Shown here piece by piece: positions 14,632 through 36,437 of a stretch of DNA of 64,000 bases. Within the stretch, counting starts at the first letter, position 1. The number at the start of each line of letters is the position of its first letter. Made by a program: the position numbers and the translations under genes. The DNA comes from a bacterium (lineage in GTDB: Bacteria > Auribacterota > UBA6266): NCBI GenBank assembly GCA_023228325.1, contig JALOBK010000001.1, forward strand, positions 1,596,111-1,660,110. The letters run 5' to 3'. The notes under the pieces were generated by a model. It did no database searches, was not told the DNA's origin, and saw nothing but the letters and a program-made list of their open reading frames with translations.

Positions 14632-15291
14632 TTATCTCTTTCTGCGTGTTATCGAAATTACTCCAACAAGTCCCAACCCTAAAAGGACTATGCTTGTCGG
14701 TTCAGGCACAACATCAAAAGAGGCGTCGTCAACCCATATATCATTTGGATCCCCTGCCCCTGTTTTGCTGAATACGATTTCATATTTTGCGCCTACGGTA
14801 TCTGTCGGAGCTGTGAATACGTCTGAAAGAGAATGCCATAAGCCGGCTGTGTAAGTGTTATTGAAGAGTGAAGCCCCTTCATCTGTTTTTATTACCCCGC
14901 CGCCGGCATTAAGCCATTCAATTTTAAACAAGGCTCCACCCGGGGTAATATCCGACTGCCTGTTGAAAAATGCCGAAGCCGCGTATTGTGTCCCGGGATT
15001 AATCCCGCTTTCTATCGTTTGCGCAATCATTGAATATGCCCAGTTGCTGCCATACAGGAAAAGTGTGGCAGAGTGGGGAGCGCTTTTGGAATTGCTGTCT
15101 GTAACCCATGAGCCGCCGCCTGATGCAGTGCCGCCGCCGCCACCGCCCCACCAGGGGGTTGTATCCCATTTAATTTCCTGTACGGCCATTGAATCAAAGC
15201 CCGAGTCGGCTAACAAATTAGCTGAAGCGGGAGTGTTTGCGGTCAATACCAGAAGTAATACCGCAACCAGGCTTAAATACGTGTGTTTCAT
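14632..15291 (-). CDS. PEP-CTERM sorting-domain protein (exosortase substrate)
   Basis: Signal peptide; mature N-terminus 'ASANLLADSGFDS'; Gly-rich tract 'PWWGGGGGGTASGGGSW'; C-terminus 'VPEPTSIVLLGLGLVGVISITRRKR' = PEP motif + TM helix + basic tail. Confidence 0.8.
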   Translation of the reverse strand: MKHTYLSLVAVLLLVLTANTPASANLLADSGFDSMAVQEIKWDTTPWWGGGGGGTASGGGSWVTDSNSKSAPHSATLFLYGSNWAYSMIAQTIESGINPGTQYAASAFFNRQSDITPGGALFKIEWLNAGGGVIKTDEGASLFNNTYTAGLWHSLSDVFTAPTDTVGAKYEIVFSKTGAGDPNDIWVDDASFDVVPEPTSIVLLGLGLVGVISITRRKR

Positions 15292-15506: not shown

Positions 15507-15616
15507 AATCGACTATAATTAAGTGATATGTATTCCATTATATGAAAATAGATTAGAGTAAATGTAAGCAAAAAATACATAGAGAAAATGTTTTTATGAA
15601 AAATGAAAGGTTTCTG

Positions 15617-17305
15617 ATGAAAAGAACTATATCAGTTTTAATATTGATAACGTTAACTATCGGGTGTCTGCTCTCCACAGATATTTTTTCGGAAGAGAAC
15701 CTGATAAACCTGGATGTCGTCAATCAGGATATTCAGACTGTGCTTAAGATGCTGGCGCAGCAGCAGAATTATAACATAGTCATCAGCAGGAATGTTACGG
15801 GGGTGATTACTGTTAAACTTGAAAACGTTACGATTGAACAGGCGCTTGATTCTATCCTTAAACTTAACAACTATAATTATAGTATTGAAGACGGAATAAT
15901 CAATGTCATGTCATATCAGGACCTGCAGCATGAAGAAAGATTCGCGAAAAAACAGACCAAAGTATTTACCCTTCAAAATGCGGATGTGATGGATTTAAAA
16001 AGAGTTATTCTCTCGATGAAAAGCGCGAGAGGTAAAATCGAATTAAATCCGAAAAACAACCAGATAATTATTAACGACACTCCCGATAAAGTCGCTGAAA
16101 TCGGAGAGGCGATAATCGCGTTAGACCAGCCTGTTGAAGTAAGAAGATATAATATCCTTTATGCTGACGTTGACGATATCCAGACAAAGTTGCTGCAGGT
16201 GATTCCAAAAGAAAAAGGTGAGATCTTTATAGATGAGAAAAACAACGCTATTGTTATCAAAGCCACGCCTGTTGTCTTAAAACATGTGGATGAATTAGTC
16301 AGAGGCTGGGATTTTCAGCCTAAGCAGGTGCTTATCGAATCGCAAATGGTTAAAATCCAGCTGGATGACAATATGGCTTTGGGTATGGATTGGGAGATAA
16401 AAACCGGCGGCAAGGAGGGTAATAAGTTTGTTGACCTTGCCACTAAATTAACAGTTGCGGCTACTACCGGCGGAGCCGGGGGGATATTTACATTGGGTTC
16501 GCTAACCGCCGGGGAATATACCGCTACGATTGAGGCTTTAAAAACAACCAAGTTCGCCGATGTCCTTTCAGCTCCGAGAGTGGTTGTGCTGGATGGGGAA
16601 GAAGCTAAAATTCTTGTAGGAAGCAGTGAGCCTTACAAGGTTGCTGTAACCGATCCTGTGACAAAACTGCTTGTTGAAGAGATAAAATATGTTGATGTGG
16701 GTATAAAACTGGAAGTTACCCCCAGAATAGGGGAAGACGATTATATAACAATGAAAATCCATCCGGAAGTCAGCAAAGGTCAGAGAGTATTAAACGATTC
16801 TGCGGTACAGGTGATTCTTACGGAAGCTGATACGACTATGATGGTTAAAGACGGTGAAACCGCTATACTTGGAGGACTGATCGACTCCGAATCCTCGACA
16901 GAAATCGACAAAGTCCCGTTGTTAGGGGATATACCCCTGTTAGGGCTCCTGTTCAGGAAAAATGTTGAAACTGAAAAGAAAAGCGAACTGATTATCTTTA
17001 TTACCCCCCATATCCTGAATGATAATAAGAGAACTAAGATTTCGAAGCAGAGCTGGGATAATTTTAATGAAAGAGGTGAGGAATTCGATAAAAAGGTTGA
17101 ATTCGAGCGCCTGATGAAAATAAAAATGGGAAAATCTCCTTATGAGGAAGAAGACCTGATTCCTGACGCAAAGAGCAGAATTTTACTCGAGCAGTATAAC
17201 GAAACTGATTTTTCCGAGCCGGGCACAGAGAGCGGCAAAGTGGAAAATAATTCAATAAAAGCAGATGCTGATTTGTCCTTGGAGCCTGAGCCGTCTGGAG
17301 AGTAA
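15617..17305 (+). CDS. Secretin-family outer-membrane channel protein
   Basis: N-terminal signal peptide; secretin N-domains; C-terminal secretin signature 'VPLLGDIPLLGLLFRKNVETEKKSELIIFITPHIL'; first gene of the EPS operon (ORF-track ATG at 15596 is an alternative start). Confidence 0.8.
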   Translation: MKRTISVLILITLTIGCLLSTDIFSEENLINLDVVNQDIQTVLKMLAQQQNYNIVISRNVTGVITVKLENVTIEQALDSILKLNNYNYSIEDGIINVMSYQDLQHEERFAKKQTKVFTLQNADVMDLKRVILSMKSARGKIELNPKNNQIIINDTPDKVAEIGEAIIALDQPVEVRRYNILYADVDDIQTKLLQVIPKEKGEIFIDEKNNAIVIKATPVVLKHVDELVRGWDFQPKQVLIESQMVKIQLDDNMALGMDWEIKTGGKEGNKFVDLATKLTVAATTGGAGGIFTLGSLTAGEYTATIEALKTTKFADVLSAPRVVVLDGEEAKILVGSSEPYKVAVTDPVTKLLVEEIKYVDVGIKLEVTPRIGEDDYITMKIHPEVSKGQRVLNDSAVQVILTEADTTMMVKDGETAILGGLIDSESSTEIDKVPLLGDIPLLGLLFRKNVETEKKSELIIFITPHILNDNKRTKISKQSWDNFNERGEEFDKKVEFERLMKIKMGKSPYEEEDLIPDAKSRILLEQYNETDFSEPGTESGKVENNSIKADADLSLEPEPSGE

Positions 17306-18940
17306 ATGATGTCCGGTCTGAACGAAACGCTAAATAAAGAGAAAAACATTGTTTCTTTACGGGACTATCTTCAGATAATATTCCGGAGAAAGAATTTTTT
17401 TCTGATGCCTTTCCTTATAGTGTTTCTCACTTCGATGATAGGCAGTTTTTTCCTTCCCCGGTATTATGAATCAATCGTTATCATGCTTGCCGAAGAGGAA
17501 AATATTGTAAACCCATTATCAGATGAATCAAAATTGATGCGGGTGCAAAAGGAAGAAGAATCGCTACCAGAGCAAATAAAAACAATAACATTTAAAGTTT
17601 TGAGTTATCAAAATTTATTTAAGCTTATTGGTGAATTAGGATTGGATAAAGAAATCAAAAGCCAAAAACAACTCGAGAAGACAATAAAACAAATTCAAAA
17701 ACATACAGATGTAAAAATTCTTGCCCCGGAGGTATTCCAGATATCTTATGAAGATAAAGATCCCTGGATGTCGCAGAAATTGATAAATACTTTACTGAAA
17801 ATTTTTGTTGAAGAGACAGCGAGGAGAAAAAGGGAACGGGCTGAAGAAGGCGTAGGATTTGCCCAGGCAGAGGCGGAAGAGTATAGAAAGAAATTAGCGC
17901 AGGTAGAGCAGGAATTATATGAATACAAGGAAAAATATCCCCTCCAGCTTCCCGGCGAACAGGAAGATTATAACATTAAAATGCTTATCAATTACCAGAC
18001 CCAGCTTACACAGCTTGAAATGGCTGTGCGTGAAGCGGAAATGGATAGACAGCTCCTTGATGACCAGATAATGGGAAGGGAACCTGTTATTATAACAACC
18101 GAGCTGCTGGGGCTGAACCCCATAGTTAAAAGCCTGAATGAGAGGTTGCAGGAATTACAGTTACAGTTGGATTATCTGAACACGGAAGAACCTGATTCGG
18201 AGGATATACTTAATATACAGATCGAAATAGAAAATGTAAGCGAGAAGCTCAGGATTGAAACAGAGAAAATGGTTGACGGGGAAACAGCTGTAAACGCGCC
18301 GCTCTTCTATCAGGGACTGGAGCAGAAACTCAAAGATGCGAAAAAAGACCTGGATAAACTGGAAAAAAGAGAAAAAGATGTCAGGTCGCTTGTCGGGGAA
18401 TATGAGAATAAAATCAGAAACCTTAATGAGCAGCAGTTGCAATATGTAAAACTCATAAGGGATTTTGAGGTTAATAAGAAAATCTATGAAATGCTGCGTG
18501 TTAAAGCGGAAGAGAATAAGCTTACCTCCCAGGAAGTCCAAAAAAAGGGAACAAGATATGAAATAATCGAAAAGGCGAGACTGCCCCTTGAACCGTCCAA
18601 ACCGCAAAAACTCCTGATTTCCATTGTTGCGTTTATCATAGGTTCTCTGTCGGGGTTCGGGTGTGTTTTTCTTGTAGAATTTGCAGACCATACTTTTCTC
18701 GGTGTTGAAGATTTGAAGAAGTACACCGATCTTCCTGTGCTGGGTTCTATTTCAAATATAAAAAGCAGGAAAGAAACAGATTTGAAAATTGCAAAAAGAA
18801 GGAAATTCATAGTTGTATTTGTCATGCTTATATTTTTGTTGTTAATGACGGGTATTATAAATTCCTGCATACAGGATGAGAAGATGAATGAGATGATAAG
18901 AAAAGCTACTCTTGAGAAAGAAACCGGGCCGGAATTATAA
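17306..18940 (+). CDS. Polysaccharide co-polymerase (Wzz/GumC-like chain-length determinant)
   Basis: 544 aa; N-terminal TM helix, long coiled-coil periplasmic region, C-terminal TM helix; start abuts secretin stop. Confidence 0.75.
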   Translation: MMSGLNETLNKEKNIVSLRDYLQIIFRRKNFFLMPFLIVFLTSMIGSFFLPRYYESIVIMLAEEENIVNPLSDESKLMRVQKEEESLPEQIKTITFKVLSYQNLFKLIGELGLDKEIKSQKQLEKTIKQIQKHTDVKILAPEVFQISYEDKDPWMSQKLINTLLKIFVEETARRKRERAEEGVGFAQAEAEEYRKKLAQVEQELYEYKEKYPLQLPGEQEDYNIKMLINYQTQLTQLEMAVREAEMDRQLLDDQIMGREPVIITTELLGLNPIVKSLNERLQELQLQLDYLNTEEPDSEDILNIQIEIENVSEKLRIETEKMVDGETAVNAPLFYQGLEQKLKDAKKDLDKLEKREKDVRSLVGEYENKIRNLNEQQLQYVKLIRDFEVNKKIYEMLRVKAEENKLTSQEVQKKGTRYEIIEKARLPLEPSKPQKLLISIVAFIIGSLSGFGCVFLVEFADHTFLGVEDLKKYTDLPVLGSISNIKSRKETDLKIAKRRKFIVVFVMLIFLLLMTGIINSCIQDEKMNEMIRKATLEKETGPEL

Positions 18941-18956
18941 AAGTGAGTATAGAATA

Positions 18957-19790
18957 ATGGATAATATTGGGGACGCATTAAAAAAAGCCGCAGAAAAAAA
19001 GAAGGACACCTTTGGGAAAGGAATAATCCCTTTGAAATCCGATTCTCCTGTTCCCGTTGAATATAAGAAATCTATAGAAACTTCTGGCATAGATAAAACC
19101 AACCTAAAAAGAGGAAAGCAGGTTGATCCCAGAATAGTTGCTTATTATGAGGACAACGGCAAGATACTTGAAGACTACAGGGCTTTGTTGATGCAGATAT
19201 TGTCAATTCAGGAAGAGCCCGGCAAGCAACTCAAAACGATTGCTTTAACAAGTTCAAGAGAAGGAGAGGGAAAGTCGATAACAGCCCTTAATATGAGCAT
19301 AATTCTTGCAAAGAACTACAAGAAAAAAACATTGATAATGGATTGCAATATCAGAAACCCGGGCATTAATACTTTATTGGGAATAAATATTAAAAAGGGT
19401 TTAAGCGATATATTAAGAGAGGATGTTCCGTTCAATGTGGAGATTCTTGAGACTGGAGTGGATAATTTAGGCATGATACCTGCCGGAGAAATTTACTCCA
19501 ATCCCGCACAGGTATTCGCGTCGGAGAGAATGAAAAACCTTCTTGAAGAGGTTAAGAAACAATTTGATATTATAATTTTAGATACCCCCGCGGTCATACC
19601 TTACGCAGACCCGAGAATACTGGCGCCCCTTGTTGATGGAATCATACTGTTAGTTCAAAGCGGCAGAGTGAGACGCGAAGTACTTCAGAGGACCGAATCT
19701 ATTCTTCAGGAAGTCGGCGCAAATATCTTAGGATGTCTTTTGACCGGAGTGGAATATTATATCCCCGAATATATACACCAGCATTTGTAA
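18957..19790 (+). CDS. EpsG/CpsD-like tyrosine-kinase-type ATPase (ParA/MinD fold)
   Basis: Deviant Walker A 'SSREGEGKS', Walker B 'ILDTPAV'; ~277 aa; ORF-track TTG start 18912 overlaps upstream gene, ATG 18957 preferred. Confidence 0.7.
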   Translation: MDNIGDALKKAAEKKKDTFGKGIIPLKSDSPVPVEYKKSIETSGIDKTNLKRGKQVDPRIVAYYEDNGKILEDYRALLMQILSIQEEPGKQLKTIALTSSREGEGKSITALNMSIILAKNYKKKTLIMDCNIRNPGINTLLGINIKKGLSDILREDVPFNVEILETGVDNLGMIPAGEIYSNPAQVFASERMKNLLEEVKKQFDIIILDTPAVIPYADPRILAPLVDGIILLVQSGRVRREVLQRTESILQEVGANILGCLLTGVEYYIPEYIHQHL

Positions 19791-19825: not shown

Positions 19826-21298
19826 ATGAAGATCATTTCAGGTTTATTCAGTAACGATGGGACCTTATCTCAAAAAACAGTAAGAGGTGGGGTGTGGATT
19901 TTTGGTTCTCTAATTTTGAGCAGGATATTATTTTTTGTTAGGACAATTATATTAGCTAAGCTTCTTATGCCTAACGACTTTGGTTTGATGGGAATAGCTG
20001 TTCTTACAATAACGGGATTACAGCTATTCAGTGAAACTGGAATCACATATGCAATAGTACAGAAAAAAAATATTTCAGAGGATGTTCTCAATACTGCTTG
20101 GGTTATGTCAATATTACGCGGAACAGTTCTCTTTATTGTGCTTTTCTCCTTATCTCATATTATTGCAACCTTTTATAATAATCTAAAATTAGAAGCTATG
20201 CTTAGAGTCCTCTCTTTTTCTTTTTTATTTATAGGTTTTCAAAATGTGGGCATTGTGCTTTTTCAAAAAGATTTGAATTTTAAAAAAAGAGCTTTGTTTA
20301 TTACTGCAACAGATTTTGTAAATATAGTTTTAACTGTTGTTTTTGCTTTTGTTTTTAAAAGTGTTTGGGCTATGGTTATAGGACATCTTGTGGGTAACTT
20401 AACAGGATTAATTGTTTCATATATGATTCATCCTTTTAAGCCCTCATTTAAGTTTAATCCTAATATTGCAAAAGAGCTGTTCAATTTTGGTAAACATGTG
20501 TTCGGATCATCTATCATGATTTTTTTTGTTACACAAGGTGATGATGCATTGGTGGGAAAAATACTGGGCTTAGACGCTCTTGGCTTTTATGTATTAGCTT
20601 ATAGTTTATCTAATTCGCCAGCTACTGCGATTACCCATGTTATTTCACAAGTAAGTTTTCCTGCTTATTCGAAAGTACAGGATGATCTCATGAAACTCAG
20701 TAAAGGATATTTAGAAATATTGAAAATCACTTCATTGTTGGCTTTTTGTTTGGCGGGAGGACTTTTTATCCTTGCTCCGGAGTTTATAAGAATAGTTTAT
20801 GGCGATAAATGGCTGCCTATGTTACCTGCAGTATTGGTACTATGTTTTTTAGGGATTTTTCGTTCAATTGGAGCAACTATGGGACCAATTTTTTTCGCCG
20901 TTGGCAAACCCTACATACAGAATAAAATAAAACTCTTCGAATTAATAGTCATGGTTATCATTATATATCCACTAGTAAAATTTCTAGGGATTGTCGGTGC
21001 TGCATTAGCAGGAACAATTGTTTATTTGTTAAGCCTAATATTTCATTATTATAATCTTGTAAATATTTGTGAGAATCTAAAGGTAAAAATTTTAAAAGTT
21101 GTAATGAAACCATTTTTAGCCACATTGTTGATGATTTGGTTTTTATATTTACTGAAGAATTATATTTTTACATGTATAAACCTGCCCAATCTAATAATTA
21201 TTATTGGCTTAGGGATAAGTTTTTATATGACATTTAATTTTCTGTTTGATAAAAGCTTGTTTAAACTATTGAAAACAGTAATTAGTGCTATAACCTAG
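19826..21298 (+). CDS. Polysaccharide flippase (Wzx, MOP superfamily)
   Basis: 490 aa, ~12-14 predicted TM helices; AAGGAG RBS upstream; position after Wzz/kinase genes. Confidence 0.75.
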   Translation: MKIISGLFSNDGTLSQKTVRGGVWIFGSLILSRILFFVRTIILAKLLMPNDFGLMGIAVLTITGLQLFSETGITYAIVQKKNISEDVLNTAWVMSILRGTVLFIVLFSLSHIIATFYNNLKLEAMLRVLSFSFLFIGFQNVGIVLFQKDLNFKKRALFITATDFVNIVLTVVFAFVFKSVWAMVIGHLVGNLTGLIVSYMIHPFKPSFKFNPNIAKELFNFGKHVFGSSIMIFFVTQGDDALVGKILGLDALGFYVLAYSLSNSPATAITHVISQVSFPAYSKVQDDLMKLSKGYLEILKITSLLAFCLAGGLFILAPEFIRIVYGDKWLPMLPAVLVLCFLGIFRSIGATMGPIFFAVGKPYIQNKIKLFELIVMVIIIYPLVKFLGIVGAALAGTIVYLLSLIFHYYNLVNICENLKVKILKVVMKPFLATLLMIWFLYLLKNYIFTCINLPNLIIIIGLGISFYMTFNFLFDKSLFKLLKTVISAIT

Positions 21299-21310
21299 GC
21301 AAAACATAAA

Positions 21311-22696
21311 ATGAAATATAGTTCGGAAGAACATCCGATAATTGAGTTCCCTGCTTTACTAAAAATCTTTCTAGTATTTATTATGTTTTGTTTTGGAATT
21401 AGCCTTTTATTTTTACCTTGTTACATAGTTTTAGCATTATTTTTTGTTTTTTGTATAACTATTGGGATAGTTTTTAATCCCTTTATTGGGGTTATTCTTT
21501 TTTTAACAACTATTTATCTCCATGTTATGGCCTTTGCACCTGTGGAACTTGTTCTAATACATCCTGCTATAATTGCTGGAGGTATTGTGTTTTTTTCTTG
21601 GCTTTTTCATATTATTATTTTTAAAGATTTTAGTTTTCCAAATTCATCTCAGTTTTATTGTGTTGTGGGATTTAGTTTTATTGCTTTTCTCTCTATAATT
21701 TATCATTATAACGATTATAGTAACTTTTTTTTGGTTTTTAACCTTATTAAAATGTTGATTTTGTATTTTCTCATAGTAAATATGATTAAGACCAAAAGAC
21801 AATTTTATATATCATTAAGTTTAATCTTAGTATTGACTTTTAGCACCGCTTTTTATGGTATTTTGCAATATTTGCAAAGTGGGGGTAGCGGGGATATGAG
21901 TAGGGTTGTTGGTTTTGAGGGTAATCCAAATGCTCTTTCTATGAATTCGGTTTTGATTGTTCCCTGTCTTTTAGGTTTTATTTATTATCAATTTTCTCTT
22001 AAGTTAAAGTTGCTGTTTCTTGTTATATTTCTTGTAATTTTATTAGGTATTATTTTTACATTTTCTCGTGCCGGTTTTGTCACTTTAGCAGCAGTCTTTT
22101 CAATGAGTTTATTTGTGTTTAGTAAGGGGCGTGCTAGATTCATTATGGCAACAATCCTGTTTTTGCTTTTTATGGTTTTATTGCCTTTTTTGCCAGAACA
22201 ATATTGGGAACGTATTCAGTCAATAACTGATTTAAAAGAGGCAAGTATTGTGGCCAGGTTAGATAGCTATCGGGTTGGTTTGCAAATGATAAAGGATAAT
22301 CTGTTGATAGGTATTGGTCCAGGGAGATGGCATGCTGAATATGTTCCACATGCTGTTAAATTATTAGGTATTACAGCATATACAAAGTATCCTCACAACG
22401 TATTTATTGAAGTTGCAGCAGAAATAGGTGTTATTGCATTGATATTATATGGATTTTTGCTTTTTTTTAGCTTTAAAGAATTGAATGAAGCGCGTAAAAT
22501 TTTTAAAGAGAAGAAAGAATTTTTGTTGTCAATAATTTCCCAATCATTCTTAATAAGTTTAATAGGTTTTTTAGTTAACACCACCTTTGAAGCTGGTATT
22601 GGGTTAAAAATATTTTGGTTAATCGCTGGACTTGCTGTTGTATTGAAAAAAATAGCAATAAATATAGAACCTAAACCACAGATAAAAAATTCCTGA
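21311..22696 (+). CDS. O-antigen ligase/Wzy-like polysaccharide polymerase family membrane protein
   Basis: 461 aa polytopic membrane protein with large loop containing 'FTFSRAGF' and 'YPHNVFIEVAAEIG', typical of Wzy_C/O-antigen ligase domain. Confidence 0.7.
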   Translation: MKYSSEEHPIIEFPALLKIFLVFIMFCFGISLLFLPCYIVLALFFVFCITIGIVFNPFIGVILFLTTIYLHVMAFAPVELVLIHPAIIAGGIVFFSWLFHIIIFKDFSFPNSSQFYCVVGFSFIAFLSIIYHYNDYSNFFLVFNLIKMLILYFLIVNMIKTKRQFYISLSLILVLTFSTAFYGILQYLQSGGSGDMSRVVGFEGNPNALSMNSVLIVPCLLGFIYYQFSLKLKLLFLVIFLVILLGIIFTFSRAGFVTLAAVFSMSLFVFSKGRARFIMATILFLLFMVLLPFLPEQYWERIQSITDLKEASIVARLDSYRVGLQMIKDNLLIGIGPGRWHAEYVPHAVKLLGITAYTKYPHNVFIEVAAEIGVIALILYGFLLFFSFKELNEARKIFKEKKEFLLSIISQSFLISLIGFLVNTTFEAGIGLKIFWLIAGLAVVLKKIAINIEPKPQIKNS

Positions 22697-22701: not shown

Positions 22702-23856
22702 GTGAATAAGATAAATATAGCACATTTAACATCTCCTCGTAGGGATCAATTATCCGGTTCAGACAAAATAGTTCTGTCTATAATATCGAGATCAGACAAC
22801 AGAAGATTTAAACACATTGTATTTTGTGTGGGGGATCCTAATTGTAAAGACTGCTTATTAACAACAGAAGTAACTAAATTAGGAGGAAGAGTAGAAGTGA
22901 TAAATTTTCGGTGGTGTCTTGATATAAAATCTGTTCTTCTTTTAAGAAGGTTACTAAAGAAATATTCAATTAATATTTTGCAAACCTATGAATATAAAAG
23001 TAATTTTATGGGGTGGCTTGCCACAGTTTTTACCAATGTAAAAAAAATTGCCCGTATTGGTGGGTGGTTGGGTTTTGGGTTGACATTCAAAAATAGCAAA
23101 TTAGATCGGAAGGCATTTGTTTATGAAAAAATAGATTCTTTTGTAAGGCAGAAATTTGACAAAGTCATTGTTATATCAACTAATATTAGGGATAAACTTA
23201 TTGCTCAAAAATGTCCCCTTGAGAAAATAGCATTAATTTATAATGGTATTGATTCCGCTGAATTTTGCTCAGTTGATTCTGCCAAAACCAGGAGAAGTTT
23301 GAATATTAAACCTGGTATGAAAATTATAGGAACAGTGGGTCGTTTGACTTCTGAAAAAGGACATAAATATTTATTACAAGCTTTTACTAATATAATAAAA
23401 AAGTATCCCAAGACTAAAATTATTATTGTTGGTGAAGGTAATCTTAAACAAAAACTAATTAACTATTCGGAAAAATTAGGTATTAAAGATAGAGTGCTTT
23501 TTACTGGATTTGTGCTAGAAGTTGCCAAATACTTATCGATTATGGATGTTTTTGTTTTTCCCTCATTATGGGAGGGTTTTGGAATAGCTTTGATTGAAGC
23601 AATGGCAATGGGTATTCCTATAGTGGCCACTAGAACCGGGGGTATCCCTGATATAATAGAGAATAATATAACTGGTATTCTAGTAGAACCAGGAAATATA
23701 TTAGAGATGCAGGAAGGAATTGGCAAGCTCTTAACCGAAAGAGATGCATCGAGATTAATGGCGGAAAATGCCAAAATAGTGTTTCATAAGAAATTTTTAG
23801 TTGATGAAATGGTGAAGAAATATGAGGAAGTTTATTTGGAACTAATGAATCTATGA
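22702..23856 (+). CDS. Glycosyltransferase family 1 (GT-B, GT4-like)
   Basis: C-terminal 'FPSLWEGFGIALIEAMAMGIPIVATRTGGIPDII' (EX7E-type motif); GTG start. Confidence 0.85.
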   Translation: MNKINIAHLTSPRRDQLSGSDKIVLSIISRSDNRRFKHIVFCVGDPNCKDCLLTTEVTKLGGRVEVINFRWCLDIKSVLLLRRLLKKYSINILQTYEYKSNFMGWLATVFTNVKKIARIGGWLGFGLTFKNSKLDRKAFVYEKIDSFVRQKFDKVIVISTNIRDKLIAQKCPLEKIALIYNGIDSAEFCSVDSAKTRRSLNIKPGMKIIGTVGRLTSEKGHKYLLQAFTNIIKKYPKTKIIIVGEGNLKQKLINYSEKLGIKDRVLFTGFVLEVAKYLSIMDVFVFPSLWEGFGIALIEAMAMGIPIVATRTGGIPDIIENNITGILVEPGNILEMQEGIGKLLTERDASRLMAENAKIVFHKKFLVDEMVKKYEEVYLELMNL

Positions 23857-24965
23857 GTCGAATAAATAAAATACTAGTGATCTGCTTGCAAGGCATCGGG
23901 GATTTGTTGTTGCTTACCCCAGCATTATCTTTGTTGCGGAAAGGATATCCTAAAGCAGAAATTTCTATTTTAATTTCTAATAAAGCAAAAGATGTAGTTC
24001 TGGGTAATCCCAATATTGATGAACTAATAGTTTTTAAGCATGAAAATAAAAATATTTTTAGAATATTTAAATTATTGAGATATTTATCGAGGAAACATTA
24101 CGATTTATCTATTTGTTCTTATCCAACAGGGTTGCGTTCTGCACTTGCAGGGTATATATCTGGAGCAAAAATAAGAATTGGACAGGATGTATGGCCTTTA
24201 AGAAAATTTCCTTTTCTGTTTACAAATAAAATTAAGGTATCTGAAGTTAAACATGCAGTTGAAATGAATTTGGATCTTCTAAAACCGTTGAAATTGAACC
24301 CCGATATAAGTAACAGAAAATTGTTTTTCCCATTAGAAGGTAAACATAAAGAGTTTGTAAAAGAATTAAGGAAAATAAATCATATAGCAGATAGAGATTT
24401 TACCGTGTGTATTCATCCTACAGCATGCGCAGAATCGAGAAGATGGCCTATAGATAGATTTATAGAACTTGCTAATAATTTAGTTGAGATGTTTAATGCA
24501 ACAATAATACTTCTTGTCGCAGCGAATGAAAAAAATATTGCAAATGAAATTGAAAAGGGAGTAAAAAAACCTTTATTGGCAATGGTTGGTGCTCCGTTAA
24601 AAACAGTAGCTGCTATGATAGAAAGTGCTTCTTTATTTATTGGTAATAATTCTGGTCTTATGCATATCGCAACTTCAGTAGAAACTCCTACAATAGGGCT
24701 TTTTGGAGATACCGACCCTCGGATACATTCTCCATATGGTAGAAAATATATAATTGTAAGATCAAATTTGGATTGCAGCCCTTGTTACTATCCGCATCTT
24801 CATGGAACTCTAGAATGTGCGAAATTAGGGCGTGGTGTAGTAAGGCGCAAATTTAAGTGTATGCGAAATAATTACGAATGCATGAAATTAATTTCTGTTG
24901 GAGATGTACTAAAGGCTGTGGAATATCTTATTTCTGGAGAAAATGAGGAATTAAAGAATGAATAA
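23853..24965 (+). CDS. Glycosyltransferase family 9 (heptosyltransferase-like)
   Basis: N-terminus 'ILVICLQGIGDLLLLTPALSLL' and C-terminal 'GNNSGLMHIA' are characteristic of GT9; 4-bp overlap with upstream gene. Confidence 0.8.
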   Translation: MSRINKILVICLQGIGDLLLLTPALSLLRKGYPKAEISILISNKAKDVVLGNPNIDELIVFKHENKNIFRIFKLLRYLSRKHYDLSICSYPTGLRSALAGYISGAKIRIGQDVWPLRKFPFLFTNKIKVSEVKHAVEMNLDLLKPLKLNPDISNRKLFFPLEGKHKEFVKELRKINHIADRDFTVCIHPTACAESRRWPIDRFIELANNLVEMFNATIILLVAANEKNIANEIEKGVKKPLLAMVGAPLKTVAAMIESASLFIGNNSGLMHIATSVETPTIGLFGDTDPRIHSPYGRKYIIVRSNLDCSPCYYPHLHGTLECAKLGRGVVRRKFKCMRNNYECMKLISVGDVLKAVEYLISGENEELKNE

Positions 24966-26664
24966 AAAAATAAAAGTAGCATCTATAATCTTTCAATTTT
25001 TTACTATTCTTATAAGTACATTCTTTTATTGCGATATGATTGAGGCGAAAGAAAAAATTCTTATTGTGCCTACGCCTTTTTCTGTAGAATTAAAAGATTT
25101 TGATGTAGTTTTAGATGAGAATTGGAGCATAGTTGTAGACACTTCTAATGAAAATAATTTATTTTGCGCTAAATATTTAAGCGAAAAATTATCCCCCAAA
25201 AATCTCCACGCTATATCCATTGAAGGTAGCTTAAACCCGCTTTTTGGAAAAAATATTTTTCTCGGATTAACAAATGAGGATTTTATTAAGCAGCTTGTTA
25301 AAGAAAGAAATATAATAATTCCTCCTGAAATCGGGGATGAAGGTTACCTATTAGATATTTCTTCTGATTCTGTTGTTGTTATTGCTAATAAATCCAGAGG
25401 GCTTTTTTATGGAGTTACAAGTTTTCTTCAGTTGATTGCTTTTGAGAATGAACATTTGAAAGTTCCCGGTCTTAAGATTATAGATTATCCCAAACTCAAG
25501 TTAAGAGGAGTTCATATCCTGAACATAGATTATAATAAGATAGAAGATCAAATTGATATGATGGCATCCATGAAAATTAATACTGTAATATTTAGTGATA
25601 AAAATTATTTTAATTTAGAACAGGTAAGTTTTAGAAAACAAATTAAAGAAATTTTTAATTATGCCCGGGAGAGATTTATTGAGCCTGTTCCGGAAGTGGC
25701 CGCTCTTGGATCTGCATATCCTATGTTAGCTCTAAATCCCCATCTTGCTGAAGGAGTGTGGATTACTGATGAACATTATAAATTTGTAAATGATAAAGCC
25801 ATCCCAATAAAAGCAACAGGGCATAATCTCGTTAATGTTATAAGGACAAAGGAAACAGATATAGAAATTACGAATTTAGAAAAGAGTAAAATATATAAAA
25901 AAGATATAGACTATAGAATAATTGATGGTGTTATATCATATCCATACGATATGACCAATCAGCCGACTGAAATAGCAAAAATTTCAAATGGAGATATTAA
26001 AAACGGTGATGAAGTCTTGATAAGTTATGATTACGTTGAAAATAAATGTGCTTCGTATGCACCTTGGAATATTCCATATTGTCTGTCTTCTGAAGAAGCT
26101 CGGCAAGTTATGTTTTCTGCCATTAAAAATACGATTGAATTATTAAATCCTAAATATATTGACTTGGGATATAGCGAAATTGGAGGAATGAATAAGGATA
26201 GTCGTTGCAAAAGGAGAAATTTAACAAACGCAGAATTATTAGCTGATGATATAAATAATATGTATGGATTTATTAAGGGGATAAATCCAGAGATAAAATT
26301 GATGATATGGGATGATATGATTAATCCATGGCATAATGGTGGAGATGAGAATTATCAGGTGAAATATGGTGGTATTCCAGGGAAAACAGCTCCGACTATA
26401 AATATGATTCCCAAAGACATAATTATTATAGTATGGTGGTATAAATCCAATGATGGTTTAGGAAAAATGAAGCAAAGCCCTGCTTATTTTGAGAAAAAAG
26501 GGTTTCAATATTTGGTTTCATCTTGGAAAGACAAAGAAAACATTGAAAGCTGGGTCGAAATTGCAAATAAGAAAAAAGGATGCTTGGGGATGATTGCAAC
26601 ATCTTGGAATGGACTGGATAAAAATTTCAGCAATATAAAATATGCCGCAAGCTTAATGTGGTAA
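24958..26664 (+). CDS. Secreted hypothetical protein, glycoside-hydrolase-family-20-like
   Basis: 568 aa with N-terminal hydrophobic signal; 'KVPGLKIIDYPKLKLRGVHILNIDYNKIEDQIDMMASMKINTVIFSD' resembles the GH20 N-terminal/TIM-barrel junction, but the expected 'HIGGDE' catalytic pair appears as 'EIGGMNKD'. Confidence 0.4.
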   Translation: MNKKIKVASIIFQFFTILISTFFYCDMIEAKEKILIVPTPFSVELKDFDVVLDENWSIVVDTSNENNLFCAKYLSEKLSPKNLHAISIEGSLNPLFGKNIFLGLTNEDFIKQLVKERNIIIPPEIGDEGYLLDISSDSVVVIANKSRGLFYGVTSFLQLIAFENEHLKVPGLKIIDYPKLKLRGVHILNIDYNKIEDQIDMMASMKINTVIFSDKNYFNLEQVSFRKQIKEIFNYARERFIEPVPEVAALGSAYPMLALNPHLAEGVWITDEHYKFVNDKAIPIKATGHNLVNVIRTKETDIEITNLEKSKIYKKDIDYRIIDGVISYPYDMTNQPTEIAKISNGDIKNGDEVLISYDYVENKCASYAPWNIPYCLSSEEARQVMFSAIKNTIELLNPKYIDLGYSEIGGMNKDSRCKRRNLTNAELLADDINNMYGFIKGINPEIKLMIWDDMINPWHNGGDENYQVKYGGIPGKTAPTINMIPKDIIIIVWWYKSNDGLGKMKQSPAYFEKKGFQYLVSSWKDKENIESWVEIANKKKGCLGMIATSWNGLDKNFSNIKYAASLMW

Positions 26665-26704
26665 GCAGAGATTATAAATAGATAGTTTTATGGAGGTGTG
26701 CAAG

Positions 26705-27748
26705 GTGAAAAAAGCGTTAATTACGGGTGTAACCGGTCAAGATGGCTCGTATCTGGCTGAATTCCTTTTGAGTAAAGGTTATGAAGTTCATGGGATTATT
26801 CGTAGGGCAAGCACCTTTAATACAGGGAGGATAGATCATATATATAAAGATGCTCATAATCCTAAAGTAAAAATGTTTCTTTATTATGGAGACCTGTCAA
26901 ATGGAGAGCAAATTTCAAATATTATTTATAATATAGAACCTGACGAAGTATATCATCTGGCAGCTCAAAGCCACGTCCGTGTTAGTTTCGATTTGGCGGA
27001 ATATACTGGAGATGTAACTGCGTTGGGCACAACGAGAATCCTGGAAGCAATAAGAAGAAGTAAAAAAAACATTAAATTTTATCAAGCTTCTAGTAGTGAA
27101 ATGTTTGGGGCAGCTAAATCACCACAAAGTGAAACAACTCCATTTAAACCTCAAAGTCCTTATGCCTGCGCAAAACTTTACGCATATTGGACAGCGAAAA
27201 ATTATTGTGATGGATATAATGTTTTTGCTTCTAATGGGATCTTATTTAATCATGAATCTCCTCGTCGGGGTGAAACCTTTGTTACCCGCAAGATATCAAG
27301 AGCCGTTGCGGCAATTCTAGCAAAGAAGCAGGACTATCTATATTTGGGAAATCTTGATGCCAAACGGGATTGGGGATATGCTCCTGAATATGTGGAAGCA
27401 ATGTATAATATACTTCAGCTTGAAAACCCGGACGATTTTGTTATAGGGTGTGGGGAAGCTCATTCAGTGAAAGAATTTGTGCAAGAAGCATTTTCCTATG
27501 TTGGTTTAGATTGGGAAAAATATGTAAGAATTGATTCAAGGTATTTTCGTCCAACAGAAGTTATAGAGCTTATTGCTGACGCAAGTAAAGCTAAGGAAAA
27601 GATAAAGTGGAATCCTAAAATTACATTTAAAGATTTGGTCAAAATAATGCTTGATTCAGATATGCGGAGAAAGAGACTTAGGCCAATTGGAGAAGGAGAG
27701 CAAATATTAAAAGTTAAATTACCTGATAGGTGGTGGAAGGCAGATTAA
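26705..27748 (+). CDS. gmd: GDP-mannose 4,6-dehydratase
   Basis: '[38 protein letters not shown]' is near-identical to canonical Gmd N-terminus; GTG start 8 nt after GGAGG RBS (ORF-track ATG 26690 lacks RBS). Confidence 0.95.
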
Positions 27749-27749
27749 A

Positions 27750-28691
27750 ATGAATTTTTGGATAAATAAAAAAGTTTTGGTAACAGGTGGTTCTGGTTTT
27801 CTTGGTGGTTACGTTGTAGATAAATTGATAGAAAGAGGCGTAAATCGGGAAAATATAGAGATTCCGAAAATGAAAGATTGTGATTTAAGAGAAAAAGAAA
27901 ATTGTGCAAAGGTTGTAATAGGGAAAGACATTGTAATACATTTAGCTGCTGTTGTTGGAGGAATTGGGGCTAATAGTAAAAATCCGGCAAAATTCTTTTA
28001 TGATAACGCGATTATGGGTATTCAATTAATTCATGAAAGCTGGAGAGCTGGTGTCAAAAAATTTGTTGCGCTTGGAACAATATGTTCTTATCCTAAATAC
28101 ACCCCCGTGCCGTTTAGAGAAGAGAATTTATGGGATGGTTATCCTGAAGAAACCAATGCCCCTTATGGATTGGCAAAGAAAATACAATTAGTACAAACGC
28201 AAGCTTATTGTCGGCAATATGGTTTCAACGCAATCTATTTATTGCCGGTTAATTTGTATGGTCCTAGGGACAATTTTAGTCCTGAAATATCTCATGTAAT
28301 TCCCGCCTTAATAAAAAAGTGTTTTGATGCGATTAGACAGGAGAAGAAAGAAATAATTGTTTGGGGAACAGGAAAGGCGAGCAGAGAGTTTTTATATGTT
28401 GAAGACTGCGCAGAAGCAATTCTTATGGCAGCTGAAAAATATAACAAGCCCGATCCCGTTAATATTGGCGCAGGTTTTGAGATTTCGATCAAAGAACTAG
28501 TCAATTTAATTGCAGAGCTTACTGGGTTTAGAGGCAAGATTATATGGGATGTTAAAAAGCCTGATGGACAACCAAGAAGAATGCTTGACACTTCGAGTGC
28601 TTTTCGTGAGTTTGGATTTAAATCTAATACAAATTTAAGAGAAGGTTTAAAAAAAACAATAGATTGGTATTTTTCTAATCGAAATAATTAG
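27750..28691 (+). CDS. fcl: GDP-L-fucose synthase (GDP-4-keto-6-deoxymannose 3,5-epimerase/4-reductase)
   Basis: 313 aa; '[11 protein letters not shown]', 'NAPYGLAKK' (YxxxK), '[12 protein letters not shown]', 'SHVIPALI', '[12 protein letters not shown]' match Fcl/WcaG pattern; directly follows gmd. Confidence 0.9.
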
Positions 28692-28701
28692 AAGATAAAA
28701 C

Positions 28702-29334
28702 ATGAAAAATGAAATAAAAAAATATCTTATAGAAATACCGTTTTTTTATTTTATCAGGAGAAGTTGTGAAATAATCTCTCTTGTTGGATGGGTATTGAAA
28801 GGCAAGCCTATTCCACCTCCACATTTAGTAAAACAAAGAACACTTAGAAAATATGCGAATAAATTTACGGTAGATACATTAGTTGAGACTGGCACATATC
28901 TGGGCGATATGATATTTGCTATGAGACGCTTATTTAAAACTATTTATTCTATAGAAATGGATGAGCATTTATACAAAAAGGCAAAGAGCAGATTTTTGAA
29001 ATACTCAAACATTTCTATTTTTCATGGTGATACTTCTGATATTCTTCCCCAAATACTAAAAACATTGTATAAGCCGATATTATTTTGGCTTGATGCTCAT
29101 TATTCTGGGGGAATTACAACAAAAGGTTCTTTGGAATATCCTATAATAAAAGAGCTGCAATATATTTTCGGTCATTCAATACGGAATCATGTGATATTGA
29201 TAGATGATGCTCGAATGTTTGATGGGTGTGATGGACGACCCCAAATTAAACACATTATGGAACTTGCTTACAAAAATTATCCAAATTGTATTTTTGAAGT
29301 TGAAAACGATATTATCAGTATTTGCCCCAAATAA
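28702..29334 (+). CDS. Putative class I SAM-dependent methyltransferase (sugar O-methyltransferase-like)
   Basis: Motif-I-like 'TLVETGTYLGDM' and downstream acidic 'FWLDAHYSGG', 'ILIDDARMF'; 210 aa; located after gmd-fcl. Confidence 0.4.
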   Translation: MKNEIKKYLIEIPFFYFIRRSCEIISLVGWVLKGKPIPPPHLVKQRTLRKYANKFTVDTLVETGTYLGDMIFAMRRLFKTIYSIEMDEHLYKKAKSRFLKYSNISIFHGDTSDILPQILKTLYKPILFWLDAHYSGGITTKGSLEYPIIKELQYIFGHSIRNHVILIDDARMFDGCDGRPQIKHIMELAYKNYPNCIFEVENDIISICPK

Positions 29335-29343
29335 GGCACTTAA

Positions 29344-30141
29344 ATGAATGATATTGAAAGAACATTTGCTGTACTTGTTGTGTCTTGTGATAAGTATGCT
29401 GATTTATGGAAACCCTTTTTTCAGTTATTCTGGCAATTCTGGCCCGATTGCCCTACCAATGTTTATCTGCTTACTAATGAGATTTGTACAAGCTTCCCTC
29501 GAGTTAAAAATTTGCTGATTGGGAAAGATATATCCTGGTCAGATAATCTGCGCAAAGCCATACTTGAATTAGATGAAAAATATATATTTTTGTTTATAGA
29601 TGATCTTTTTTTATATGATTTTGTCAATGCAAGTAAGGTATTGGAAATTTTCAAGTGGATTTTAAAATCGAATCCCAATTATATAAGAATGAATCCCACA
29701 CAAAAGCCCGATAGCCCTTATAATGAATTAGTAGGCAGTGTTTCTAAAGGTACAATTTATAGGACCTCTACAGTTTTGTCTGTTTGGAAGAAAAACGTTT
29801 TATTGGATTTGTTGAAACAAGGTGAGAGCGCATGGGATTTCGAAGTTTATGGGTCTGTCAGATCTGATGTATATGAGGGGTTTTACTCTACATGGAGTCA
29901 TTATTTCCCTGTTATCAATTGTGTGGTTAAGGCTAAATGGCAGAGATCTGCAATTAGGAAATTTAAAAGATTAGGAATTAACATTGATTTAACCAAAAGA
30001 GAAAAAATGAATTGCCCCGAAACAATATTGTCTTACTTTAAATATTTACGATCAGGTTTATTGAATATGTTTCCTGCCAGATATAGAAGAAGAATAAAAG
30101 ACATCGTATTAAATGGAAAGTATGACTATAAAATAAAGTGA
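29344..30141 (+). CDS. Hypothetical protein (possible GT-A-like transferase)
   Basis: 265 aa; no recognisable family from sequence alone; contains 'YIFLFIDDLFL' (DD, DxD-like); embedded among glycosyltransferases on the same strand. Confidence 0.5.
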   Translation: MNDIERTFAVLVVSCDKYADLWKPFFQLFWQFWPDCPTNVYLLTNEICTSFPRVKNLLIGKDISWSDNLRKAILELDEKYIFLFIDDLFLYDFVNASKVLEIFKWILKSNPNYIRMNPTQKPDSPYNELVGSVSKGTIYRTSTVLSVWKKNVLLDLLKQGESAWDFEVYGSVRSDVYEGFYSTWSHYFPVINCVVKAKWQRSAIRKFKRLGINIDLTKREKMNCPETILSYFKYLRSGLLNMFPARYRRRIKDIVLNGKYDYKIK

Positions 30142-30172
30142 ATAATATCAAGCTCACATTAAAAGGGAAAAA

Positions 30173-31315: not shown

Positions 31316-31317
31316 AA

Positions 31318-36336: not shown

Positions 36337-36437
36337 GCTACTTGACAAATCACAAAAAATAAGGTAAGTATTGACAAATCTTTTTTTTATTCAATAAGTT
36401 GATAGTCAACCATACAAGTATAGAAAAGGAGGAATTC

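What the first reader, a model, noticed from the sequence alone, without database searches (positions are those of the whole stretch)
15617..17305. Secretin-family channel as the first gene of a Wzx/Wzy-type EPS operon
Wzx/Wzy-dependent polysaccharide export usually uses a Wza-type outer-membrane protein together with the Wzz/kinase pair. Here the co-polymerase and EpsG-like kinase follow a protein with a clear secretin C-terminal signature, and no Wza-like gene is visible in the operon. A secretin acting in exopolysaccharide export would be unusual.
Basis: partly seen in the sequence, partly recalled or inferred. Interest (0 to 1): 0.5.

Follow-up and report, generated by a model that had tools for sequence, protein, structure and literature searches.

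The report
Secretin hard-wired to an exopolysaccharide operon
A true secretin, the kind of outer-membrane pore normally used for proteins and pili, is the conserved first gene of a sugar-polymer (Wzx/Wzy plus exosortase) export locus that has no Wza-type exporter in the 64-kb window, in a group of uncultured PVC-group bacteria; this suggests, but does not prove, that the secretin is the exit channel of this pathway.

Summary
ORF 15596/15617-17305 is a bona fide secretin (Pfam Secretin 3.5e-45; N0 plus two ring domains; Foldseek PulD 3.5e-25). It abuts a Wzc/PslE-like co-polymerase, a tyrosine autokinase, Wzx, Wzy, glycosyltransferases and a WecA-like primer.

No Poly_export/SLBB (Wza-type) protein is encoded anywhere in the 64 kb. 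The organism is a Candidatus Auribacterota bacterium.

The secretin-to-co-polymerase-to-kinase order recurs in every relative examined: 15 loci found from the secretin and 22 of 22 found from the co-polymerase, down to about 45% identity in Auribacterota and Omnitrophota. Two other complete loci repeat the whole secretin-to-exosortase array without an OPX. Two genomes also carry a separate sister secretin, in one case next to PilO/GspC-like genes, so this is a dedicated paralogue. A distant co-polymerase has a Wza-type OPX in exactly the secretin's position.

Best reading (about 0.5): the secretin replaces Wza as the outer-membrane exit. Main rival (about 0.25): it exports PEP-CTERM proteins. 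A Wza gene elsewhere in the genome could not be tested. I found no description of this arrangement in the searchable literature.

The parts
15596..17305 (+). Secretin (569 aa; alternative start at 15617 gives 562 aa). Layout: signal peptide, N0/STN, N1, N3, secretin barrel, long C-terminal helix, acidic disordered tail.
   Evidence: Pfam Secretin 3.5e-45, two Secretin_N, STN. Below the NCBIfam cut-offs for GspD (260.5 vs 351) and PilQ (259.5 vs 284). AF2 model. Foldseek PulD 3.5e-25. PDB sequence hits to PilQ and GspD.
17306..18940 (+). Polysaccharide co-polymerase (PCP-2-like; the kinase is a separate protein). TM helices 30-51 and 435-461, a periplasmic domain of about 385 aa rich in E/K/Q/L, and a third hydrophobic segment at 495-524.
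   Evidence: GNVR 1.5e-13. TIGR03007 XrtA chain-length determinant 1.5e-79. Profile hits to PslE (4.8e-14) and Wzc. Hydropathy analysis. The gene starts at the base after the secretin's stop codon.
18912..19790 (+). Bacterial tyrosine autokinase; the likely true start is the ATG at 18957.
   Evidence: TIGR03018 2.4e-44 and TIGR01007 139.9 bits, above its cut-off of 108. Walker A GEGKS, Walker B IIILDTP and a C-terminal YY..Y cluster.
19826..21298 (+). Wzx flippase (MOP family)
   Evidence: Polysacc_synt_3 1e-78; MOP flippase NF007773 2.3e-77.
21311..22696 (+). Wzy-type polymerase / O-antigen-ligase-like protein
   Evidence: Wzy_C 1.9e-21; TIGR03097 5.8e-25.
22702..32364 (+). Repeat-unit synthesis block: GT4, GT9, GH20-like, GDP-mannose 4,6-dehydratase, epimerase/reductase, methyltransferase-like protein, an unknown 265-aa protein, GT2, and a WecA/MraY-family priming transferase (31318-32364).
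   Evidence: Pfam and NCBIfam hits. Genes are separated by gaps of -8 to +31 nt. G+C falls to 0.30-0.35 here.
32670..33530 (+). Polytopic membrane protein of unknown function, conserved before the TPR/exosortase genes in relatives (280 aa in L088; 268 aa, DUF7847 faint, in L117).
   Evidence: No Pfam or NCBIfam hit. The sequence is hydrophobic throughout. Synteny.
34018..34890 (+). TPR lipoprotein (lipobox VIGC), conserved immediately upstream of the exosortase.
   Evidence: TPR families, with YbgF 2e-23 and BamD 3e-18. Sequence. Synteny.
34901..35716 (+). Exosortase (EpsH family)
   Evidence: PF09721 2.5e-63. TIGR02602 157 bits, above its cut-off of 105.55; the XrtA-specific model scores 170, below 208.
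35704..36336 (+). EpsI (DUF3485), the exosortase-associated protein
   Evidence: PF11984 5e-37; TIGR02914 7e-32.
14632..15291 (-). PEP-CTERM protein, divergently transcribed from the secretin
   Evidence: PEP-CTERM 8.9e-06; PepA-like 2.2e-10.
36399..41692 (.). Five PEP-CTERM proteins (36399-37064 +, 37350-37961 +, 39457-40071 +, 40138-40809 -, 41042-41692 +), some with lectin-like Mann_GBD or CBM11 domains, plus a LacI-type regulator (38175-39212). A seventh PEP-CTERM protein lies at 50188-50799.
   Evidence: Pfam PEP-CTERM hits.

Best explanation
This is a dedicated secretin paralogue that serves as the outer-membrane exit of a conserved exosortase-linked Wzx/Wzy exopolysaccharide system of Auribacterota and Omnitrophota. 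It takes the place that a Wza-type OPX protein holds in canonical systems.

Shown:
- It is a real secretin.
- It is immediately followed by a Wzc/PslE-like co-polymerase and a tyrosine autokinase, in every relative examined.
- The complete loci examined contain no OPX.
- A separate sister secretin exists in the same genomes, next to PilO/GspC-like genes in one case.

Inferred:
- Repeat units are built on undecaprenyl phosphate by the WecA-like primer and the glycosyltransferases, flipped by Wzx, and polymerised by Wzy under control of the co-polymerase and kinase.
- The periplasmic domain of the co-polymerase (about 385 aa) docks on the N0-N1-N3 rings of the secretin, as it would on Wza.
- The polymer leaves through the gated secretin pore.
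- Because the array ends with an exosortase and EpsI, and lectin-like PEP-CTERM proteins are encoded around it, the wide secretin channel may let polymer and folded PEP-CTERM proteins, possibly joined together, leave by one route.
For: 1. Identity as a secretin.
2. Tight gene array from secretin to EpsI, with a gap of 0 nt between the secretin and PCP genes.
3. From the secretin side, 15 loci at 44-92% identity have PCP directly downstream, followed by the kinase wherever the contig continues (one was checked only by tblastn coordinates). From the PCP side, 22 of 22 loci that include upstream sequence have the secretin directly upstream.
4. The flanking genes differ between lineages (CarB, GGDEF regulator, tRNA_bind), so the link is to the module and not to the neighbourhood.
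5. The same genomes hold a sister secretin without PCP, flanked in one case by PilO and a T2SSC-like gene: GCA_004196255.1 and MAG B26_G9 (L012 and L015).
6. No Poly_export/SLBB protein in the 64-kb window, nor in two other complete loci of about 39-43 kb. tblastn with a real OPX finds nothing in the window or in the fetched loci.
7. In a distant PCP locus (L115), a Poly_export+SLBB OPX lies 4 nt upstream of the PCP, in the same position as the secretin here.
8. LpxA and a lipid A acyltransferase in the window indicate that the organism has an outer membrane.
9. Experimental precedent that PilQ/GspD secretins are needed for exopolymer secretion: PMC12475490.
Against: - There is no experimental or structural evidence for a PCP-secretin contact.
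- Solved Wzc and PslE structures are deposited with eight chains per entry and secretins with 12-15, so a symmetry mismatch would have to be accommodated.
- An OPX encoded elsewhere in the 1.99-Mb genome cannot be excluded; only 64 kb was seen.
- The secretin is equally linked to the exosortase wherever the full locus could be read (the window and two others), so synteny does not tell polysaccharide cargo from protein cargo.
- No residues clearly separate this secretin from its T4P/T2SS-type sister.
- From my general knowledge of XrtA loci (not tested here), proteobacterial exosortase loci use an OPX, so a secretin is not a general requirement of such systems.
Confidence: 0.5

Rival explanations
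1. The secretin is the outer-membrane translocator for the PEP-CTERM proteins processed by the exosortase of the same locus, by analogy with GlyGly-CTERM and MYXO-CTERM proteins, which cross the outer membrane through the T2SS. The polysaccharide itself leaves by another route, either an OPX encoded elsewhere or an unrecognised porin.
For: The array ends in TPR lipoprotein, exosortase and EpsI, and seven PEP-CTERM genes lie in the window. The secretin and the exosortase sit 18-22 kb apart on the same strand in two other complete loci. Shared contig lengths suggest the two co-occur on three further contigs. MYXO-CTERM and GlyGly-CTERM proteins depend on the T2SS for surface delivery (PMC11980579; PMC12475490). 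The outer-membrane route of PEP-CTERM proteins has been unknown since Haft 2006 (PMC1569441).
Against: The secretin is glued to the PCP and kinase genes (gap 0-150 nt in every locus) and lies at the opposite end of the array from the exosortase. No pseudopilin, GspE/F or GspC genes, which a T2SS-like protein pathway needs, occur in the window. PEP-CTERM genes adjoin the secretin only in the closest relatives. No OPX or alternative polysaccharide channel is seen in the three complete loci.
Confidence: 0.25
2. It is the cell's ordinary type IV pilus, T2SS or competence secretin, and its place beside an EPS operon is an accident of gene order. JGI annotates it as PilQ.
For: Sequence scores are close to the PilQ and GspD models (259.5 and 260.5 bits). 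JGI names it PilQ. It is 36-55% identical, depending on the domain, to the sister secretins that lack an adjacent PCP.
Against: It falls below both curated cut-offs. It has no AMIN domains, and no pilMNOP or gsp genes lie nearby. The adjacency to PCP and kinase is conserved in all 15 secretin-side and 22 of 22 PCP-side loci despite different flanks. Two genomes carry a separate sister secretin, one of them next to PilO/T2SSC-like genes.
Confidence: 0.05
3. The secretin acts indirectly. It secretes an enzyme of the locus, for example the conserved GH20/GH123-like hydrolase, or another factor that matures the polymer outside the cell, rather than conducting the polymer.
For: A GH20- or GH123-like protein is conserved in the array. 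Zuckerman et al. considered this kind of indirect model for PilQ/GspD.
Against: It does not explain the strict pairing with PCP and kinase, or the absence of an OPX. No T2SS inner-membrane platform is encoded in the locus. From general knowledge (not tested here), hydrolases in EPS operons are usually periplasmic.
Confidence: 0.08

Closest known systems
Wza-Wzc (OPX-PCP) trans-envelope complex of Wzx/Wzy-dependent capsule and EPS export (E. coli group 1 capsule; Pseudomonas PslD-PslE)
   Same: Wzx, Wzy, a PCP-2-type co-polymerase related to PslE and Wzc, a tyrosine autokinase with a C-terminal Tyr cluster, a priming transferase, and an outer-membrane gene placed directly upstream of the PCP gene, as the OPX is in L115.
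   Different: The outer-membrane gene is a secretin (PF00263), not a Poly_export/SLBB/Wza_C protein. No OPX lies in the window. From general knowledge, the expected oligomer is 12-15 subunits rather than 8, and the pore is a wide gated beta-barrel rather than a narrow alpha-helical barrel.
PilQ/GspD 'slime nozzles' of filamentous cyanobacteria and Myxococcus xanthus (Zuckerman, So and Hoiczyk 2025, PMC12475490)
   Same: A secretin-family channel is implicated in releasing a non-protein exopolymer. That paper asks whether a secretin can be the outer-membrane part of an already known EPS pathway, and this locus fits that description.
   Different: There the secretin is the shared T4P/T2SS secretin, with no reported genetic link to Wzx/Wzy/PCP genes. 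The proposed partners are pseudopilins (the hps locus) and a synthase-type system. Here a separate paralogue is hard-wired to PCP and kinase, and no pseudopilins are conserved.
XrtA/PEP-CTERM exopolysaccharide loci (Haft 2006, PMC1569441; NCBIfam TIGR03007, TIGR03018, TIGR02602, TIGR02914)
   Same: Exosortase, EpsI, multiple PEP-CTERM proteins, an XrtA-type chain-length determinant and an XrtA-type kinase.
   Different: The scores for XrtA, TIGR03007 and TIGR03018 all fall below the equivalog cut-offs. No OPX was found anywhere in the window (Pfam), and no PrsK/PrsR regulators, EpsL-type barrel or GspA-like ATPase were found among the 20 locus proteins scanned with NCBIfam. A secretin heads the array.
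T2SS-dependent surface delivery of C-terminally sorted proteins (GlyGly-CTERM/rhombosortase; MYXO-CTERM/myxosortase, PMC11980579)
   Same: A C-terminal sorting signal cleaved by an intramembrane enzyme, with a secretin as the outer-membrane exit.
   Different: Those systems use the complete housekeeping T2SS encoded elsewhere. Here only the secretin is present, and it is coupled to polysaccharide genes.
Composite OPX/beta-barrel translocons (M. xanthus WzaX-WzpX; bioRxiv 10.1101/2022.02.11.480155)
   Same: Another case in which the outer-membrane step of a Wzx/Wzy pathway does not use a classical full-length Wza.
   Different: Those systems keep a Poly_export-SLBB protein and add an 18-stranded porin. 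Here neither is present in the locus.

Membership tests
Secretin superfamily (PF00263) | C-terminal secretin domain above the curated threshold | tested here: met
   154.1 bits against a cut-off of 27.5, aa 314-474.
Secretin superfamily (PF00263) | Periplasmic N0 (STN) domain plus ring-building Secretin_N domains and an N-terminal signal peptide | tested here: met
   STN 41.2 bits and two Secretin_N stretches. The AF2 model shows N0 at 30-109, N1 at 113-169 and N3 at 174-231. A hydrophobic N-terminus spans residues 1-26.
Secretin superfamily (PF00263) | Secretin fold | tested here: met
   Foldseek: PulD 3.5e-25, GspD, InvG and PilQ, all at probability 1.00. TM-scores are low because the domain orientations in a monomer model differ from those in the assembled ring.
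Secretin superfamily (PF00263) | Assembles into a 12-15-mer gated outer-membrane pore | not testable with these tools
   This needs multimer modelling or cryo-EM.
T2SS secretin GspD (TIGR02517) | Equivalog score above the cut-off | tested here: not met
   260.5 bits against a cut-off of 351.35.
T2SS secretin GspD (TIGR02517) | Encoded with gspC/E/F/G-K genes | tested here: not met
   No T2SS family hit in any window ORF.
Type IV pilus secretin PilQ (TIGR02515) | Subfamily score above the cut-off; AMIN domains; pilMNOP upstream | tested here: not met
   259.5 bits against 284.35. There is no AMIN hit, and the upstream gene is a divergent PEP-CTERM protein. One member of the sister paralogue group (L006) has PilO and a T2SSC-like gene upstream.
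OPX / Wza family | Poly_export (PF02563) plus SLBB domains | tested here: not met
   Neither the secretin nor any other window protein hits these families. The same method finds them in L115. So the secretin may work like an OPX, but it is not one.
Wzx/Wzy-dependent polysaccharide pathway | Wzx flippase, Wzy polymerase, PCP, and a priming phosphoglycosyl transferase | tested here: met
   Polysacc_synt_3 1e-78, Wzy_C 1.9e-21 and GNVR 1.5e-13; Glycos_transf_4 5.5e-45.
Wzx/Wzy-dependent polysaccharide pathway | OPX partner of the PCP | tested here: not met
   Absent from the 64-kb window and from two other complete loci.
XrtA/PEP-CTERM EPS system | Exosortase, EpsI and multiple PEP-CTERM proteins | tested here: met
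   TIGR02602 157.2 bits against 105.55 and TIGR02914 110.3 against 42.8. Seven PEP-CTERM hits.
XrtA/PEP-CTERM EPS system | XrtA-specific exosortase, and XrtA-type PCP and kinase equivalogs, above their cut-offs | tested here: not met
   XrtA 170 against 208. TIGR03007 267.5 against 278.85, and TIGR03018 151.2 against 230.65. These are the closest families, but the locus is not a member by the curated thresholds.

The most novel reading that the evidence does not exclude
A secretin paralogue has replaced the OPX protein as the dedicated outer-membrane partner of a PCP/tyrosine-kinase Wzx/Wzy machine. That would define a further architecture for polysaccharide export across the outer membrane. 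Because the same array carries the exosortase, it may also be the long-sought outer-membrane route by which PEP-CTERM proteins, possibly attached to the polymer, reach the cell surface.
Probability: 0.4. Interest if true: 0.8.

Novelty: new variant of a known kind. Interest (0 to 1): 0.62.

Why it matters
Three routes for polysaccharide export in diderm bacteria are recognised, and the Wzx/Wzy and ABC-transporter routes are thought to rely on OPX (Wza-type) proteins at the outer membrane. In 2025, experiments showed that PilQ/GspD secretins are needed for slime secretion. The authors asked whether a secretin can be the outer-membrane part of a known EPS pathway, and how widespread this is (PMC12475490).

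This locus offers a genetically explicit candidate: a separate secretin paralogue fixed next to the co-polymerase and kinase of a Wzx/Wzy pathway, across two candidate phyla, with no OPX in the locus. It yields a small, testable set of parts (secretin, PCP, kinase) for interaction and cryo-EM work.

It also bears on an unanswered question from 2006: how exosortase substrates cross the outer membrane. The annotations seen for this protein and its homologues ('PilQ', 'GspD', 'secretin N-terminal domain-containing protein', 'hypothetical protein') hide this context.

Tried and rejected
- Promoter and terminator scans of 15200-35000 gave no more sites than shuffled sequence, so I make no operon-boundary claim from them.
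- A search for residues that separate the EPS-linked secretins from their sister secretins found only eight weak positions. There is no clear specificity signature.
- The NJ tree puts both paralogue sets in one clade but does not resolve whether the EPS-linked set is monophyletic. No stronger phylogeny program was available.
- I tried to show, by contig-length fingerprints, that an exosortase is present on the large contigs of L001, L003, L004 and L005. Neither exosortase search listed those contigs. This is uninformative, because the lists are truncated or limited by the word index.
- A PEP-CTERM motif scan of all flanks found adjacent PEP-CTERM genes only in the two closest relatives.
A profile search against the PDB was used instead.
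- Literature searches for a true secretin inside a Wzx/Wzy or exosortase cluster, or in Omnitrophota, found nothing relevant. Some papers use 'secretin' loosely for Wza.
- The unknown proteins at 29344-30141 and 32670-33530 were considered as cryptic OPX candidates and rejected. The first has no signal peptide, and the second is a polytopic membrane protein.
Full report
**The observation**

The ORF at 15596-17305 (+) encodes 569 aa.

Pfam gives Secretin at 154 bits against a cut-off of 27.5 (E 3.5e-45), two Secretin_N domains and an STN/N0 domain. An AlphaFold2 model (mean pLDDT 68) shows N0 (30-109), N1 (113-169), N3 (174-231), a beta-barrel secretin domain (237-467), a long helix (469-503) and a disordered acidic tail. 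Foldseek against the PDB returns PulD (3.5e-25), GspD, InvG and PilQ, and sequence search of the PDB gives PilQ and GspD.

The protein is below the curated NCBIfam cut-offs for GspD (260.5 vs 351.35), PilQ (259.5 vs 284.35) and every other secretin subfamily. It is therefore a real secretin that no curated subfamily claims.

**The surroundings**

The next gene starts at the base after the secretin's stop codon. It is a 544-aa chain-length determinant (GNVR). Its best NCBIfam match is the XrtA-type TIGR03007, at 267.5 bits, just under the 278.85 cut-off. It has two transmembrane helices enclosing a periplasmic domain of about 385 aa rich in E/K/Q/L, and it is related to PslE and Wzc in the PDB.

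The rest of the array, in order:
- a tyrosine autokinase with Walker A and B motifs and a C-terminal tyrosine cluster;
- Wzx and Wzy;
- GT4, GT9, a GH20-like protein, GDP-mannose dehydratase, an epimerase, two small unknowns, and GT2;
- a WecA/MraY-family primer;
- a polytopic membrane protein;
- a 23S-rRNA-IVP gene;
- a TPR lipoprotein;
- an exosortase and EpsI.

All of these lie on the + strand. Apart from one 305-nt gap before the membrane-protein gene and gaps of 47 and 77 nt around the 23S-IVP gene, the genes are separated by gaps of -13 to +35 nt. Seven PEP-CTERM proteins lie around the array.

Every non-nested ORF of at least 120 aa in the 64 kb was scanned with Pfam. None hits Poly_export or SLBB, and none is a T2SS or T4P component. 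LpxA and a lipid A acyltransferase show that the organism makes an outer membrane.

The exact proteins are MCK9555680.1 and MCK9555681.1, on a 1.99-Mb contig labelled 'bacterium'. The closest named relative, at 92% identity, is a Candidatus Auribacterota MAG in the PVC group.

**Is the adjacency more than chance?**

Searching from the secretin, homologues at 44-92% identity in Auribacterota, Omnitrophota and 'PVC group' MAGs all have PCP directly downstream, followed by the kinase wherever the contig continues, then Wzx, Wzy and glycosyltransferases. This holds for 15 distinct loci (L001, L003-L005, L007-L012, L016, L019, L087, L116; L002 repeats the L001 arrangement on another contig), one of them (L011) checked only by tblastn coordinates. 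The genes upstream differ between lineages: CarB, a GGDEF-GAF response regulator, or a tRNA-binding protein.

Searching from the PCP in metagenomes, 22 of 22 loci at 36% identity or more that include upstream sequence have the secretin immediately upstream.

More distant secretins from other Omnitrophota, Desulfobacterota, Gammaproteobacteria and others (25-37% identity) never have the PCP next to them.

**A dedicated paralogue**

A sister set of secretins (38-48% identity; L006, L013-L015, L017, L018, L021) lacks the PCP, and several of them share a run of small upstream genes of similar sizes. In L006 the two genes directly upstream are PilO and a T2SSC/GspC-like protein.

Two genomes carry both kinds. 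GCA_004196255.1 has P0066 (EPS-linked) and P0109 (PilO-linked) on the same 684-kb contig. I infer this from the matching contig length. MAG B26_G9 has L012 and L015.

In an NJ tree the two sets form one clade, separate from all other secretins. The tree does not resolve their internal order.

**Whole-locus conservation**

Two other complete loci could be assembled from overlapping or nearly contiguous fetches: L087+L088 (secretin 46% identical) and L116+L117 (52%). Both repeat the window's order: secretin, PCP, kinase, Wzx, Wzy, GT4, GT9, a GH20/GH123-like protein, GT2, the WecA-like primer, a membrane protein, a TPR protein, then the exosortase (followed by EpsI in L088). The exosortase lies 18-22 kb downstream of the secretin on the same strand, and neither locus has an OPX. 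Matching contig lengths suggest that the secretin and an exosortase co-occur on three further contigs.

**Positional equivalence with OPX**

In a distant PCP locus (L115), a 537-aa Poly_export+SLBB protein lies 4 nt upstream of the PCP. This serves as a positive control for the Pfam scan. It also shows that the secretin sits in the slot an OPX normally fills. tblastn with that OPX finds nothing in the window or in the other fetched loci.

**Mechanism**

The best-supported reading is that this secretin paralogue is the outer-membrane exit of the pathway and couples to the PCP in place of Wza. The polysaccharide steps (priming, Wzx flipping, Wzy polymerisation, PCP/kinase control) follow from established knowledge of these families. 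The PCP-secretin docking is inference.

The main rival comes from the exosortase context. GlyGly-CTERM and MYXO-CTERM proteins cross the outer membrane through the T2SS (PMC11980579), whereas the route of PEP-CTERM proteins has been unknown since Haft et al. 2006 (PMC1569441). The secretin could therefore carry PEP-CTERM proteins. Against a protein-only role are its fixed position against the PCP and kinase genes, at the far end of the array from the exosortase, and the absence of any pseudopilus, ATPase or platform genes.

A combined model is attractive but untested. The PEP-CTERM proteins here carry lectin-like domains (Mann_GBD, CBM11). From general knowledge of the published Wza and secretin structures, not tested here, a folded domain would not pass the narrow Wza neck but would pass an open secretin.

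**Comparison with what is known**

Zuckerman et al. 2025 showed that PilQ/GspD form the slime nozzles of cyanobacteria and M. xanthus. They asked explicitly whether secretins serve as the outer-membrane component of known EPS pathways, and how widespread this is. They reported no genetic link to Wzx/Wzy genes.

Work on OPX classes describes Wza variants and OPX/porin pairs, and does not mention secretins as alternatives.

My searches of the held literature found no report of a PF00263 secretin embedded in a Wzx/Wzy or exosortase cluster. Sources that name this protein or its homologues call it 'PilQ', 'GspD' or 'secretin N-terminal domain-containing protein'.

**Limits**

- Only 64 kb of a 2-Mb genome was visible, so an OPX elsewhere cannot be excluded.
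- No multimer modelling was possible.
- The organisms are uncultured.
- I could not establish whether any secretin-PCP module exists without an exosortase.

**Verdict**

I rate this a new variant of a known kind of system, of above-average interest, because it turns a recent open question into a defined set of genes that can be tested.

Noticed in passing
L003 7987-10014, L087 7990-9996, L116 7987-10014; window 3846-5507 (-): In three Omnitrophota loci, a response-regulator-GAF-GGDEF protein lies immediately upstream of the secretin on the same strand (4 nt before it in L087), and its reading frame overlaps the secretin start in L003 and L116. The window has instead a TPR-PilZ protein about 10 kb upstream. 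Both hint at cyclic-di-GMP control of the module.
   Followed up: no
L003 6290-7597; L116 6627-7579: Two or three prepilin-type (N_methyl, SBP_bac_10) genes lie just upstream of the GGDEF-secretin pair in one Omnitrophota lineage, but not in the window or in the other lineages. They could be pseudopilins working with the secretin, or just the prepilin-like genes that, as I recall, are numerous in PVC-group genomes.
   Followed up: partly
window 33578-33940 (+); L087 1864-2211: A 23S-rRNA-intervening-sequence-protein gene (PF05635) sits inside the array, between the membrane protein and the TPR lipoprotein. It is absent from that position in L088 and L117, and a copy lies upstream of the secretin in L087.
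   Followed up: no
window 20000-34000: G+C drops to 0.30-0.35 across the glycan-specific genes (Wzx to the primer), against 0.39-0.43 for the secretin, PCP and kinase genes and the flanks. The gene content of this block differs between relatives (for example a pyruvyl transferase in L001). This fits a swappable glycan cassette between conserved ends.
   Followed up: partly
window 17306-18940, aa 495-524: The co-polymerase has a third hydrophobic segment after the GNVR/TM2 region, and it is conserved in the alignment of homologues (A2). It would place the extreme C-terminus back outside the cytoplasm, which I do not recall seeing in Wzc-type PCPs.
   Followed up: no
window 34018-34890 (+): The TPR protein in front of the exosortase has a canonical lipobox (VIGC), and its best matches are BamD and YbgF. 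From memory, TPR lipoproteins of similar size (PilF, PilW, Tgl) act as secretin pilotins, so it might help assemble the secretin rather than serve the exosortase. No PilW-family hit reached E 0.001.
   Followed up: partly
L030 10001-11359 and 11571-12908: Two secretin genes in tandem in a MAG labelled Planctomycetales, from a more distant secretin clade (28-33% identity to the query).
   Followed up: no
window 36399-41692 and 50188-50799: The PEP-CTERM proteins are short (about 200-220 aa), several carry lectin-like Mann_GBD or CBM11 domains, and a LacI-type regulator (38175-39212) lies among them. L088 has three CBM_11 proteins in the equivalent place.
   Followed up: partly
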